A DNA stretch of 5,003 nt from a virus. Its lineage: Duplodnaviria; Heunggongvirae; Uroviricota; Caudoviricetes. Of this stretch, positions 978 to 5,003 are shown piece after piece. Location of the stretch: IMG/VR virus record IMGVR_UViG_2681813273_000013. One strand, 5' to 3'. The notes under the pieces were generated by a model. That model did not search any database. It was not told where the DNA came from and worked only from the letters and a program-made list of their open reading frames with translations. Every line of letters begins with the position of its first letter. The first letter of the stretch is position 1. A program made the position numbers and the translations under genes.

Positions 978-1057
978 TCACGCTAAAAGATGTTGAACAA
1001 AAATTAACCACAATCATCATCTTTTTTGCATCAACTACATTAAAAACAACAGGTTAC

Positions 1058-1151
1058 ACACATGATGATGATGACGATAAAACCACAAAAATGCGCTTTT
1101 TTCCGCGCCGACCCGCCCCGTGGACAGGCCCCCCCCACCAGGAGGACCCGC
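1058..1151. repeat. Copy A of a ~95-bp non-coding repeat with GC-rich core CCCGCCCCGTGGACAGGCC (1112-1130)
   Basis: Aligns with 3636-3727 at roughly 85% identity with small indels; contains a purine/pyrimidine trinucleotide tract, a GCGC-T6CC-GCGC hairpin, the 19-nt identical core and CCACCAGGAG. The indels break any shared reading frame. Confidence 0.8.
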
Positions 1152-1175
1152 AAAAAAGGCGGCTGCTGCCGCCTT
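1152..1175 (-). terminator. Rho-independent terminator for the capsid gene (minus strand)
   Basis: Minus strand reads AAGGCGGC-agca-GCCGCCTT followed by a T-run, beginning 4 nt after the stop codon at 1180-1182. Confidence 0.75.
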
Positions 1176-1179
1176 GTTC

Positions 1180-1938
1180 TCATGAAGAAATCGCTCTGAC
1201 CATTCCGCGATAATCCAGAGCAGCAACGCCAGCATCAATGCGGACCTTCCAGGCCACACCGTCAACAATAAAGCCCTCCTGCTGCTCAAGGTAAGGCTCG
1301 TCATTACCGTCAAGATAAGCCACCTCAATTGTGTCCGTTCCCTGTGCTGAAAGCATGTACCATTGCTTATCACTGACTTCATCAAGGCGGGGATCGACAA
1401 TAATATCCAGTTGTTTGTGGTACGGGTTATATGAACCACTGTTTGTATCGGCACCGAAAGGCGTGGTTGAGTTAACCATTTGCAACGCTCTGTCTTCCAG
1501 AGCCGCAGGAACAAGAAGGAATTTTGGCACAATATTCAGCACCTCACCGTTTTCATCCCTCTGTGTGCGCATTGCACGGCGTGCAATGCCAAGCCCTGTA
1601 GTGCTGACTCCGTTATCAATATCATTTCCGTGTTTTTTGCTGAACAGCGGTATACCGTCAGAAAGCTTTGTGTTTCCTGTCAGCACCAGATGAACCAGAT
1701 TACCCACCGTTCTGGCGGCTGCTCGCCCCATTGCCTGTGGGATAACTGTTAACTGATTCAGGTCATCGTTAATAATCGCCTGTCGGGTAATGCTGAAAAT
1801 ATTTCCGTAAGTTGCCAGCGCGATTGGTTCGCCACGGTCACTGGTGGTGATGTATTTATATTCCGCGCCTTCCGGCACTTTGTTTAATGTAGAGAAGCCA
1901 TTCAGGCCAACACGACGTGCCTCATGGAAGTTTGACAA
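1180..1938 (-). CDS. Major capsid protein, HK97-fold-like, C-terminal ~250 aa; probably lacks its own N-terminus
   Basis: Position directly after a prohead protease; segments such as ATYGNIFSITRQAIINDD resemble my recollection of the HK97 gp5 pattern (S-x-R-Q-x-hydrophobic-x-DD). The only in-frame start is a TTG with a weak RBS, and 252 aa is short for this fold. Confidence 0.65.
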   Translation of the reverse strand: MSNFHEARRVGLNGFSTLNKVPEGAEYKYITTSDRGEPIALATYGNIFSITRQAIINDDLNQLTVIPQAMGRAAARTVGNLVHLVLTGNTKLSDGIPLFSKKHGNDIDNGVSTTGLGIARRAMRTQRDENGEVLNIVPKFLLVPAALEDRALQMVNSTTPFGADTNSGSYNPYHKQLDIIVDPRLDEVSDKQWYMLSAQGTDTIEVAYLDGNDEPYLEQQEGFIVDGVAWKVRIDAGVAALDYRGMVRAISS

Positions 1939-3047
1939 TGAACCTTTTTTCGTCCACTGGCGGAACGTTTCGCCGCTGTGTTCACGGATTTTTCAGCACC
2001 ACCAGCAAGGATATAAGTAAAATCGCTGCTGCTGTGGGTGAATGCCGCGTTTACTATCTGCGAGCGTGTGCTGTAGCTGCCTGTGCTTATGCCGCGATGG
2101 GTTAATGATGCCTGTGCCATATCGAAAAGGCTCATCATGGCGTAAGGGTTGCCGCGTTCTGCCTGTTCATGTCCCAGACGCGCATTAAGCCCCTGACGCA
2201 TTGCATCGCCGGTTATGTTGCCGTTATCCGTGTACGCGTAGTAAAGATTTGCGGGGGTGGTTTTGTTTGTCGGTGTCGATTCTTTACCCATAGTGAGTAA
2301 AAGGCGTTCGCGTGCATCCTCAACGCTACAGCCTGAATCAGCAAGACAACTTATAGCCAGGTCGTTATATCTTCCATTGAACGTGCCAAACAATTCACGT
2401 ATCCCGTTGAGTCGTTCCTGTTCTCCGCTGCCAGTTTTCTGGCTGATCATGCTTTTAATATTTTCCGGCATATTCGAAAAATCTCCGATTCGTTTTGATT
2501 CAATTCTGGCCATTGCTGTAATCGCGGGTATAACCTCATCTGCGAAGCCATTAGCCTTACACTCATTGCCATCCATCCAGGTTTCCGCCTCCATCATGGC
2601 GGTGATTTCCTGTTTGCTCCTGCCCGTTCTTCCGGCGTAGGTTTCCGCCATCGTGTCGCCCAGCTTGTCCATCAGGTCAGCAAAGCGGCGAACGTCGCCC
2701 GACACTCCGGCAGTAACACCACGGGGGGCATGTATCATCATCATCGCGTTTTCAGGCATAACGATGTGATCGCCACACATGGCAATAAACGAGGCCATAG
2801 AAGCCGCCATGCCTTCAATGTGTACAATTTTCTTTGCCGGATGATTTTTCAGGGCGTTATAGATAGCCAGCCCTTCAAAGATGTCGCCACCAGGTGAATG
2901 GATGCGAAGATGGATTTCAGGCACATTACCGCACGCGTTGATCTCGTCAGTAAGTGCCGATGCTTTTACACCGTACCCGCCGATCTCGTCATAAATGCGT
3001 ACATGTACAACATCAGCCATAGCCTTAATGGAAAACCATGTTTTCAT
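1902..3047 (-). CDS. ClpP-family (S14) prohead serine protease, with a C-terminal extension that looks like scaffold plus capsid N-terminal region
   Basis: Motifs HSPGGDIFEG (ClpP NSPGG), GMAASMASF (catalytic Ser in GxAASM) and MMMIHAPRG (catalytic His) in the N-terminal ~190 aa. ATG start overlaps the upstream ORF stop as ATGA. Terminates 36 nt into the capsid ORF, in a different frame. Confidence 0.85.
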   Translation of the reverse strand: MKTWFSIKAMADVVHVRIYDEIGGYGVKASALTDEINACGNVPEIHLRIHSPGGDIFEGLAIYNALKNHPAKKIVHIEGMAASMASFIAMCGDHIVMPENAMMMIHAPRGVTAGVSGDVRRFADLMDKLGDTMAETYAGRTGRSKQEITAMMEAETWMDGNECKANGFADEVIPAITAMARIESKRIGDFSNMPENIKSMISQKTGSGEQERLNGIRELFGTFNGRYNDLAISCLADSGCSVEDARERLLLTMGKESTPTNKTTPANLYYAYTDNGNITGDAMRQGLNARLGHEQAERGNPYAMMSLFDMAQASLTHRGISTGSYSTRSQIVNAAFTHSSSDFTYILAGGAEKSVNTAAKRSASGRKKVHCQTSMRHVVLA

Positions 3048-3379: not shown

Positions 3380-3626
3380 NNNNNNNNNNNNNNNNNNNNN
3401 NNNNNNNNNNNNNNNNNNNNNNNNNNNNNNNNNNNNNNNNNNNNNNNNNNNNNNNNNNNNNNNNNNNNNNNNNNNNNNNNNNNNNNNNNNNNNNNNNNNN
3501 NNNNNNNNNNNNNNNNNNNNNNNNNNNNNNNNNNNNNNNNNNNNNNNNNNNNNNNNNNNNNNNNNNNNNNNNNNNNNNNNNNNNNNNNNNNNNNNNNNNN
3601 NNNNNNNNNNNNNNNNNNNNNNNNNN
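3380..3626. other. Assembly gap, 247 N
   Basis: Run of n characters. ORFs in the track that cross it (3324-3644, 3364-3714, 3371-3655) are artefacts. Confidence 1.
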
Positions 3627-3635
3627 AACTTAAAC

Positions 3636-3727
3636 TGGTGGTGATGGTGACATAAAAATCAAAAAATACGCCTTTTTCCGCGAACCGCCCGCCCCGTGGA
3701 CAGGCCACCCCCACCAGGAGTACCTAC
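3636..3727. repeat. Copy B of the ~95-bp non-coding repeat (core at 3688-3706)
   Basis: Aligns with 1058-1151 at roughly 85% identity. The left end abuts the N gap, so the copy may be truncated by the assembly. Confidence 0.8.
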
Positions 3728-3750
3728 AAAAAAGCCGGATTGCTCCGGCT
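3728..3750 (-). terminator. Rho-independent terminator for the SSB-like gene (minus strand)
   Basis: Minus strand reads AGCCGGA-gcaa-TCCGGCT followed by T6, 15 nt after the stop at 3766-3768. Confidence 0.75.
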
Positions 3751-3765
3751 TCTGTCACTCGTTGC

Positions 3766-4474: not shown

Positions 4475-4702
4475 CCTTCACCTGTTCACCTTTTGCAATT
4501 TTCCCTTTTTATTCATGATGTTAATGGGTTAACAGTTTCACAAAAACTATTCACCAACTGTTCACCACTGTTCACCCTTAAAGCTCAATAAAGAATCAAA
4601 AAGGTGAACAGTGAATAGTTTGGTGAACAGTTCATAAATAACTGTTCACCCTATAATATACTGATATAAAAGACATTTATTGCAGGGTGAACAGTGGTGA
4701 AC
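4475..4702. repeat. Iteron array of octamer TGTTCACC / GGTGAACA; resembles the P4 alpha-binding type I iterons of ori/crr
   Basis: Perfect TGTTCACC at 4482, 4558, 4568, 4642; perfect GGTGAACA at 4602, 4621, 4685, 4695; degenerate copies at 4475 (CTTCACC), 4547 (TATTCACC), 4610 (GTGAATAG). Seven copies extend to the 10-mer ACTGTTCACC. AT-rich context. The identity with P4 iterons is from memory of the literature, not a search. Confidence 0.75.
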
Positions 4703-4733
4703 AGTTATTCCATAAGTTTAATTTTTTCCATCG

Positions 4734-5003
4734 TCATTTGTGACCTATTGCACATGATGGCATCCAGTCTTCTGAATCCTCTGTCAGGGTCACATTTGAA
4801 CGCAAACCGTGCTTCGTTTTCCGTTTCATATACTCCCTGCCATATTCCGCCATTGCCCCCGGCATATCTTTACCGAAGCGCGTCAGTGTTACAGGTTTAC
4901 CGAATCCGTGTGCCCTCATATATGCCAGATAGGCGTGATAAAGATACCTGCGCGGACTGAACGGAATAATTTCGGCATTACCCACTAACAGACCATCACA
5001 CAT
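4734..5003 (-). CDS. 3' end of a gene truncated by the window edge; candidate C-terminal origin-binding domain of a P4 alpha-like primase/helicase
   Basis: Open frame runs to the window edge (the ATG at 5001-5003 may be internal); composition more protein-like than the overlapping plus ORF 4694-4960. The alpha assignment is inferred only from the iterons just downstream, mirroring the P4 alpha-then-crr layout. Confidence 0.4.
   Translation of the reverse strand: MCDGLLVGNAEIIPFSPRRYLYHAYLAYMRAHGFGKPVTLTRFGKDMPGAMAEYGREYMKRKTKHGLRSNVTLTEDSEDWMPSCAIGHK

What the first reader, a model, noticed from the sequence alone, without database searches (positions are those of the whole stretch)
1902..1995. 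Protease and capsid ORFs are joined only by a -1 shift at an A_AAA_AAG heptamer
On the minus strand the protease ORF reads ...GGA CGA AAA AAG GTT CAT... and stops at 1902. The capsid frame (-1) is closed just upstream by a TGA inside GGT GCT GAA, and its first possible start is a TTG at 1938. The only window connecting the two frames therefore contains A_AAA_AAG (plus 1944-1950), the heptamer I recall as the efficient -1 slippery site of E. coli dnaX. A -1 slip there would give ...SGRKK-GSLSNFHEARRVGLNG..., a ~620-aa protease-scaffold-capsid polyprotein. Three explanations fit: a homopolymer indel error in a draft assembly, a genuine inactivating frameshift in a decaying prophage, or programmed frameshifting that sets the ratio of protease-only to protease-capsid product. 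I see no strong stimulatory stem-loop 5-9 nt downstream, which weakens the third.
Basis: partly seen in the sequence, partly recalled or inferred. Interest (0 to 1): 0.6.

Follow-up and report, generated by a model that had tools for sequence, protein, structure and literature searches.

The report
Capsid gene broken by 13-base deletion
The split between the "protease" and "capsid" reading frames is an ordinary 13-base deletion that inactivated a single fused protease-scaffold-capsid gene of a small phage satellite in Shigella sonnei; the slippery AAAAAAG just downstream is an ancestral Lys-Lys coding run and not a programmed frameshift signal.

Summary
On the minus strand a 381-aa ORF ends at 1902, the capsid frame is closed by TGA at 1995-1993, its first start is TTG at 1938, and an in-phase A_AAA_AAG lies at 1950-1944. 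The window is Shigella sonnei DNA (99.9-100% identical to Ss046 and other assemblies). The gene belongs to the known "ClpP-like prohead protease/major capsid protein fusion" family (NF045540, the Gifsy-2 tripartite capsid gene type). It sits in a Gram-negative PICI satellite next to clpS. Intact homologues, including a 626-aa S. sonnei allele, are single ORFs with the same six-A run, read there as ACG AAA AAA GGT (T-K-K-G). The window instead lacks 13 nt (G CTT GCN GGN TGG) at 1984|1983, 33 nt upstream of the heptamer. Restoring them gives a protein 626/626 identical to the intact S. sonnei protein. The truncated product is recorded on at least 1000 contigs, the cap of that count, including complete genomes, so this is not an assembly error. 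A -1 slip at the heptamer would replace 15 conserved, confidently modelled residues with 11 out-of-frame ones. No significant stimulatory structure exists. Verdict: an ordinary pseudogene-forming deletion in a decaying satellite, of low interest.

The parts
1180..3047 (-). Disrupted ClpP-like prohead protease / scaffold / major capsid protein fusion gene, a pseudogene of 1868 nt (the intact allele would be 1881 nt and 626 aa)
   Evidence: NCBIfam NF045540 matches both pieces, at 442.7 and 368.8 bits, each below the 475 cut-off. The intact S. sonnei protein P0243 scores 863.2 bits. E. coli homologues are annotated as one 629-aa CDS.
1902..3047 (-). 5' ORF of 381 aa. Residues 1-355 equal the intact protein (protease, scaffold-like linker and first part of the capsid domain). 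Residues 356-381 are an out-of-frame tail, followed by the TGA stop.
   Evidence: identical to P0243 for the first 355 aa, then NTAAKRSASGRKKVHCQTSMRHVVLA.
2532..3005 (-). ClpP-like head maturation protease domain (aa 15-172)
   Evidence: NF045542 at 202.9 bits against a cut-off of 120; Pfam CLP_protease at 3.7e-33. The modelled homologue's N-terminal domain matches solved ClpP structures.
1183..2060 (-). Major capsid protein domain (Phage_capsid_4), interrupted by the deletion
   Evidence: Pfam PF25209 covers aa 330-623 of the intact homologue (8.1e-55) and profile positions 43-262 in the window's 252-aa ORF (1.5e-49).
1983..1984 (-). Junction of the 13-bp deletion. The lost sequence is G CTT GCN GGN TGG, which encodes L356 A357 G358 W359 plus one base. 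This is the true point where the frame changes.
   Evidence: Alignments to L001/L002 and to the 97.4%-identical intact allele L012. Restoring 13 nt gives 626/626 identity to S. sonnei P0243. The junction is present in L003-L010.
1944..1950 (-). A_AAA_AAG heptamer. It is ancestral coding sequence, read ACG AAA AAA GGT (T370 K371 K372 G373) in the intact gene. Only the upstream deletion puts it in slippery phase.
   Evidence: The same GGACGAAAAAAGG occurs in intact L001, L002 and L012. It is replaced by RS/RT codons in the subfamily at 62-63% identity.
1993..1995 (-). TGA that closes the capsid frame upstream of the junction. It lies out of frame in the intact gene.
1180..1938 (-). 3' ORF of 252 aa from TTG, equal to the C-terminal 252 residues of the intact protein. 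The capsid frame is already in register from E360 at 1982.
   Evidence: the capsid-frame reading matches P0243 from residue 360 to 626.

Best explanation
The two ORFs are the halves of one gene, a tripartite ClpP-like protease / scaffold / HK97-type major capsid fusion carried by a Gram-negative phage-inducible chromosomal island (PICI) inserted between cspD and clpS. In most sequenced Shigella sonnei, including this window, a 13-bp deletion at 1984|1983 shifts the frame within the capsid domain. Translation then runs 26 out-of-frame codons to the TGA at 1902, giving a 381-aa protease-scaffold stub. The remaining capsid sequence has no proper start. The AAAAAAG run is ordinary Lys-Lys coding sequence inherited from the intact gene, and it falls into slippery phase only because of the deletion. 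Shown: the deletion, its presence in many independent assemblies, the intact sister allele, and the family assignment. Inferred: the broken gene is non-functional and tolerated because PICI capsid genes are dispensable and the island is decaying.
For: (1) E. coli homologues (143 genomes with at least 80% coverage; 341 genomes in the local search) are single CDSs annotated 'ClpP-like prohead protease/major capsid protein fusion protein'. One search returned 2540 related proteins with E <= 1e-10; the complete entries among the best 120 listed are 626-638 aa. (2) Nucleotide alignment shows the same six-A run in intact genes and a 13-nt gap in the window 33 nt upstream. (3) S. sonnei itself holds an intact 626-aa allele (P0243 on 113 contigs, longest 5.03 Mb; P0246 on 4 contigs) beside the 381-aa form (at least 1000 contigs, including the 4,825,265-nt Ss046 chromosome). 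The window gene with 13 nt restored is 626/626 identical to P0243. (4) The junction is identical in 8 independent loci that are 99.87-100% identical to the window, and the exact truncated protein is indexed in 2904 blocks. (5) Family scores: NF045540 gives 863.2 bits for the intact allele, against 442.7 and 368.8 bits for the pieces, with a cut-off of 475. (6) The same island shows other decay: the primase is split by an IS3-family element, and an IS21 element is inserted in Ss046. (7) According to PMC10111431, citing PMC6092414, 21 of 29 reference Gram-negative PICIs carry a capsid gene that is not needed for helper-assisted transfer.
Against: No expression or protein data exist, so loss of function is inferred. 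The deleted allele is the majority allele in sequenced S. sonnei, which could reflect selection rather than clonal hitch-hiking. The heptamer is among the most slip-prone in E. coli, so a trace of full-length-sized product is physically plausible. I could not fetch the DNA of the intact S. sonnei allele, only its protein, so the exact deleted bases come from E. coli alleles and the protein.
Confidence: 0.93

Rival explanations
1. Programmed -1 ribosomal frameshifting at A_AAA_AAG sets a ratio of protease-scaffold to protease-scaffold-capsid product.
For: The heptamer is in the correct phase inside the only overlap of the two frames. A_AA.A_AA.G is one of the three most efficient motifs in E. 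coli when stimulators are present (PMC4066793).
Against: Intact homologues and the intact S. sonnei allele carry the same run inside one continuous ORF, so the two-frame layout is a recent derived state caused by a 13-bp deletion. The slip product would replace L356-T370 (15 aa, including the near-invariant L356, G358, E364 and T370) with 11 unrelated residues, in a segment modelled as helix and strand at pLDDT about 90. There is no significant downstream structure (z = -0.9 and -1.7). By eye there is no Shine-Dalgarno-like GGAGG/AGGGAG 8-15 nt upstream. Without stimulators, heptamers gave only 2.1-10 times a 0.055% background. The heptamer is absent from the subfamily at 62-63% identity.
Confidence: 0.02
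2. The frame break is a sequencing or assembly artefact (homopolymer or other indel error) of a draft genome.
For: The window comes from a draft, with a 247-N gap at 3380-3626.
Against: The A-run length is the same in intact and broken alleles. The lesion is a 13-nt deletion, not a homopolymer change. It is identical in 8 loci from different assemblies, including two complete chromosomes, and the exact product is on at least 1000 contigs.
Confidence: 0.01
3. The truncation is functional. The 381-aa protease-scaffold stub, with or without a trickle of slip-restored fusion, is kept because it interferes with or remodels helper-phage capsid assembly, and the deleted allele rose in S. sonnei by selection.
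For: The stub keeps the whole ClpP-like domain and the helical linker. The deleted allele outnumbers the intact one by roughly 9 to 1 or more in the collection. S. sonnei carries a lambdoid prophage with a paralogous 675-aa ClpP-capsid fusion that could be a target (L007).
Against: There is no evidence of selection. S. sonnei is a heavily sampled young clone, so allele counts reflect sampling and clonal descent (own knowledge). The island's primase is also broken by an IS, which would prevent the satellite's own replication. Another E. coli strain shows a different, independent internal deletion of the same gene, as expected for neutral decay.
Confidence: 0.04

Closest known systems
Gifsy-2-type tripartite capsid gene / NCBIfam NF045540 'ClpP-like prohead protease/major capsid protein fusion protein' (Effantin et al. 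2010, Virology 402:355, as cited in PMC8538268)
   Same: Same domain order in one ORF: a ClpP-like protease, then a helical scaffold-like linker, then a capsid domain (Pfam Phage_capsid_4). The intact S. sonnei allele scores 863.2 bits against a cut-off of 475.
   Different: The window copy is split by a 13-bp deletion, and each piece falls below the family cut-off. It sits in a roughly 10-kb satellite rather than in a full phage head module.
Capsid-gene-bearing Gram-negative PICIs (EcCICFT073 type; PMC6092414, PMC10111431)
   Same: The E. coli counterpart has int, AlpA, a D5-type primase and unidirectional genes, and is about 10 kb. The window has iterons downstream of pri at 4543-4719. A capsid homologue is common in such islands and is reported as dispensable for transfer.
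   Different: EcCICFT073 carries a lambda E-like capsid gene plus a decoration gene, whereas this island carries a protease-capsid fusion. The S. sonnei copy is degraded: IS in the primase, deletion in the capsid gene.
E. coli dnaX programmed -1 frameshift (A_AAA_AAG with an upstream SD-like element and a downstream stem-loop)
   Same: Identical heptamer in slippery phase.
   Different: There is no SD-like stimulator and no significant downstream hairpin. The two-frame arrangement is not conserved in homologues, and the trans-frame product would lack conserved residues.
Pseudogene formation and IS expansion in Shigella genomes (own knowledge)
   Same: A small out-of-frame deletion and IS insertions in a mobile element of a recently emerged clone.
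   Different: Nothing distinctive.

Membership tests
ClpP-like prohead protease/major capsid fusion (NF045540) | N-terminal ClpP-related head maturation protease domain | tested here: met
   NF045542 at 202.9 bits against a cut-off of 120; Pfam CLP_protease at 3.7e-33 on window 1902-3047.
ClpP-like prohead protease/major capsid fusion (NF045540) | C-terminal major capsid domain (Phage_capsid_4 / Mu gpT-like) | tested here: met
   PF25209 at 1.5e-49 on the 252-aa ORF. The domain begins at aa 330 in the intact homologue.
ClpP-like prohead protease/major capsid fusion (NF045540) | Both domains in one continuous ORF scoring above the curated cut-off of 475 bits | tested here: not met
   The window pieces score 442.7 and 368.8 bits. 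The intact S. sonnei allele P0243 scores 863.2 and the E. coli homologue 889.8. The window therefore holds a disrupted member, a pseudogene.
Programmed -1 ribosomal frameshift site (dnaX/IS type) | X_XXY_YYZ heptamer in phase within the overlap of the two frames | tested here: met
   CG[A AAA AAG] at 1950-1944.
Programmed -1 ribosomal frameshift site (dnaX/IS type) | Stimulatory element: a downstream hairpin or pseudoknot 5-9 nt away and/or an upstream SD-like sequence | tested here: not met
   Fold z-scores of -0.9 and -1.7. The only sizeable stem in the 101-nt fold starts 13 nt after the heptamer. No GGAGG/AGGGAG upstream by inspection. Pseudoknots were not modelled.
Programmed -1 ribosomal frameshift site (dnaX/IS type) | The two-frame architecture and motif are conserved among homologues | tested here: not met
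   Nearly all homologues examined are single ORFs; the one split E. coli copy (L011) is an independent internal deletion. The motif is absent in the subfamily at 62-63% identity, and the intact S. sonnei allele differs only by the 13 nt.
Programmed -1 ribosomal frameshift site (dnaX/IS type) | A trans-frame product is made and is functional | not testable with these tools
   Needs a reporter assay or mass spectrometry. The predicted product loses the near-invariant L356, G358, E364 and T370.
Gram-negative PICI | int, alpA and pri in one orientation, about 10-20 kb, at a fixed chromosomal site | tested here: met
   Met for the E. coli counterpart L013: Phage_integrase, Phage_AlpA (7.9e-18) and a D5_N/DUF5906/Pox_D5 primase, about 10 kb between cspD and clpS. 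The S. sonnei copy sits at the same clpS flank, but its int/alpA end was not read.
Gram-negative PICI | Replication origin (iterons) just downstream of pri | tested here: inconclusive
   Repeated TGGTGAACAGTT-type units and inverted repeats lie at window 4543-4719, directly downstream of the primase C-terminal fragment. Function was not tested.
Gram-negative PICI | Induction and packaging by a helper phage | not testable with these tools
   Experimental property.

The most novel reading that the evidence does not exclude
The 13-bp deletion allele, the majority allele in sequenced S. sonnei, might not be neutral. It would produce a protease-scaffold stub plus a small amount of a 622-aa fusion made by unstimulated slippage at the fortuitously in-phase A_AAA_AAG ('translational correction' of an indel). 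This mixture would alter capsid assembly of a resident lambdoid helper that carries a paralogous fusion gene.
Probability: 0.03. Interest if true: 0.5.

Novelty: already known. Interest (0 to 1): 0.08.

Why it matters
It matters little beyond correct annotation. The locus should be called one frameshifted pseudogene of a protease-capsid fusion gene in a degraded PICI, not two genes and not a recoding site. It also shows that a textbook slippery heptamer inside an ORF overlap can be a by-product of an upstream indel, and that comparison with an intact allele settles such cases. The intact/deleted polymorphism could serve as a lineage marker within S. sonnei.

Tried and rejected
(1) The phage collection (megablast) gave no match for the gene; only E. 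coli chromosomes did. (2) A search with the 252-aa ORF returned mainly partial proteins and no full-length close relative. Its top hit P0121/L012 nevertheless supplied a 97.4%-identical intact junction. (4) The sequence search of solved structures and the Foldseek search of the full-length model returned only ClpP hits, with no capsid structure listed. The capsid assignment therefore rests on Pfam and NCBIfam. (5) An Rfam scan of the S. sonnei locus, including the stretch masked by N in the window, found nothing credible; the single miRNA hit scored 32 bits against a gathering score of 150. (6) A lambda cosN search in L003 with up to 2 mismatches found nothing. (7) Transcriptional slippage on the A6 run was considered and set aside, because the run is the same length in the intact in-frame alleles and six A's is short for that mechanism (own knowledge).

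Full report
**Observation**

On the minus strand the window has a 381-aa ORF (3047..1902) and a 252-aa ORF (1938..1180, TTG start). The sequence around the join reads ...GGT GGT GCT GAA AAA TCC GTG AAC ACA GCG GCG AAA CGT TCC GCC AGT GGA CGA AAA AAG GTT CAT TGT ... GCC TGA.

- The stop of the first ORF is at 1904-1902.
- The second frame is closed upstream by TGA at 1995-1993.
- The run AAAAAAG is at 1950-1944, in the phase CG[A AAA AAG] needed for a -1 tandem slip.
- A slip there gives a 622-aa product.

**What the gene is**

- The first ORF carries a ClpP-like head maturation protease domain. Pfam CLP_protease gives 3.7e-33 and NF045542 gives 202.9 bits against a cut-off of 120.
- The second ORF is the C-terminal five-sixths of a Phage_capsid_4 domain (1.5e-49, profile positions 43-262 of 262).
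- Both pieces match one NCBIfam model, NF045540 'ClpP-like prohead protease/major capsid protein fusion protein'. They score 442.7 and 368.8 bits, each below the 475-bit cut-off.
- In E. coli complete genomes, 143 genomes hold the whole region at about 89.6% identity. There it is one 1890-nt CDS with that name.
- A shorter query found 341 genomes, again annotated as the fusion.
- A protein search returned 2540 relatives with E <= 1e-10. The complete entries among the best 120 listed are 626-638 aa.
- This is the gene type described for Salmonella phage Gifsy-2 as a 'tripartite capsid gene' (Effantin 2010, cited in PMC8538268).

**Where the frame really breaks**

Aligning the window gene with two intact E. 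coli genes shows that they carry exactly the same GGACGAAAAAAGG, with six A's. The window lacks 13 nt (GCTTGCAGGCTGG) between ...AAATCCGT and GAACACAGC, which is window 1984|1983 and 33 nt upstream of the heptamer.

A closer intact allele, L012 from an E. coli draft, is 97.4% identical in nucleotides and has no amino-acid change over the part of the capsid ORF it covers. It shows the same picture, with GCTTGCCGGATGG present and six A's.

In the intact gene the run is read ACG AAA AAA GGT (T-K-K-G). It comes into slippery phase only because of the upstream deletion.

**Source and population**

The window is 99.87-100% identical to eight Shigella sonnei loci, including the complete chromosomes CP000038.1 (Ss046) and CP010829.1. 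All eight carry the same junction and the same A-run.

The exact 381-aa product is indexed in 2904 blocks of the assembly collection. The cluster look-up records it on at least 1000 contigs, named 'putative protease/scaffold protein [Shigella sonnei Ss046]'.

The same 90% cluster holds an intact 626-aa S. sonnei fusion: P0243 on 113 contigs (longest 5,032,769 nt) and P0246 on 4 contigs. The window gene with 13 nt restored translates to a protein identical to P0243 at all 626 positions. The 5' ORF equals P0243 residues 1-355 and the capsid frame equals residues 360-626.

The only difference is therefore the loss of L356-A357-G358-W359 plus one base. This rules out an assembly or homopolymer error. 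It also shows that the deletion is a derived allele segregating within S. sonnei.

**Could the heptamer rescue the gene?**

A -1 slip would yield ...AEKSV-NTAAKRSASGR-KKGSL... in place of ...AEKSV-LAGWEHSGETFRQWT-KKGSL..., so 15 residues are replaced by 11 unrelated ones.

- In a 52-sequence alignment reaching down to about 42% identity, L356, G358, E364 and T370 are at least 90% conserved.
- The motif V-L-x-G-W-x-x-S-G-E-T-F-x-x-W-T is kept in the subfamily at 62-63% identity. That subfamily has RS/RT instead of KK and hence no A-run.
- An AlphaFold model of a 629-aa homologue (mean pLDDT 73.9) places 343-360 in a helix, 366-369 in a short helix and 371-375 in a strand. Block pLDDT is 91 and 90 for residues 351-370.
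- RNA folding of the 80 nt after the heptamer (z = -0.9) and of 101 nt around it (z = -1.7) shows nothing beyond shuffled controls. The only sizeable stem starts 13 nt downstream.
- No SD-like element lies upstream.
- In E. coli reporters, heptamers without stimulators gave only 2.1-10 times a 0.055% background (PMC4066793).

Any read-through product would therefore be rare and probably misfolded.

The coincidence is also not striking. In the repaired gene, 6.2% of positions hit by a 3n+1 deletion would meet this in-phase AAAAAAG before a stop.

**Context**

The E. coli counterpart is an island of about 10 kb between cspD and clpS. It contains an integrase, AlpA (7.9e-18), an Icd-like protein, DUF4222, a D5-type primase, SSB, a 64-aa ORF, the fusion gene, a 93-aa ORF and PerC, nearly all in one orientation. 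This is the organisation of Gram-negative PICIs.

The S. sonnei copy shows further decay. Its primase is split by an IS3-family element (L003 2893-4049), and Ss046 has an IS21 element downstream (L004 8459-10428). An E. coli strain (L011) has an independent, larger internal deletion of the same gene.

**Conclusion**

The feature is a real frame break, but it is a 13-bp inactivating deletion in a known fused protease-capsid gene of a degraded satellite. The A_AAA_AAG is inherited coding sequence and there is no evidence for programmed recoding. I rate it as already known in kind and of low interest.

The residual novel reading is a functional protease-scaffold stub with trace slip-corrected fusion. 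I give it about 3%.

Noticed in passing
window 3380-3626: A run of 247 N. In other S. sonnei assemblies the flanks are joined by only 188 nt (L003 5481-5668). That stretch is AT-rich intergenic DNA with small hairpins such as GGCGCAAAAAAAAGCGCC, lying between the SSB gene and the small ORF upstream of the fusion gene (75 aa from the first ATG in the window, called as 64 aa in the related loci). The N run is thus a gap or mask of the wrong length. Rfam finds nothing credible there.
   Followed up: partly
window 1054-1175 and 3630-3751 (L003 5335-5580 and 7860-8100): A repeated intergenic module follows both the SSB gene and the capsid gene. The two copies are 71% identical over 122 nt in the window and about 240 nt can be aligned in L003. 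It consists of a terminator-like hairpin with a T run, then a conserved CTCCTGGTGGGGG.GGCCTGTCCACGGGGCGGG...GCGGAAAAAGCG block, then TTTTTGTTCGAC...TTTACAAAAAA. Its function is unknown; it may be a transcription-control cassette of the island.
   Followed up: partly
window 4543-4719: A cluster of direct and inverted TGGTGAACAGTT-like repeats lies immediately downstream of the primase C-terminal fragment. This is the position where PICI replication origins (iterons) are described.
   Followed up: no
window 4734-5003; L003 1304-4373: The window's Pox_D5 ORF is only the C-terminal fragment of the island's primase. In S. sonnei the primase is split by an IS3-family insertion (HTH_Tnp_1 + rve, L003 2893-4049). 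The window starts just past it, and several draft contigs break there.
   Followed up: partly
L007 4801-9161; L011 5218-7104: In one S. sonnei draft and in E. coli JNEC-KY179 the island abuts a lambdoid prophage head module. That module begins with an N-terminally truncated terminase gpA gene, followed by a portal gene and, in L007, a paralogous 675-aa ClpP-capsid fusion (L011 ends within the portal gene). The layout resembles the 'helper-embedded PICI' configuration of PMC10111431 and points to a candidate helper.
   Followed up: no
L011 3307-4313: E. coli JNEC-KY179 carries an independent internal deletion of the same fusion gene. It is annotated as a 91-aa ClpP fragment plus an N-terminally incomplete capsid pseudogene. 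This gene is therefore lost repeatedly.
   Followed up: partly
L008 5143-7610: In one S. sonnei draft an integrase gene and an IS1 element lie between the island's 93-aa ORF and clpS, unlike the other assemblies. This suggests an IS-mediated rearrangement or a second element.
   Followed up: no
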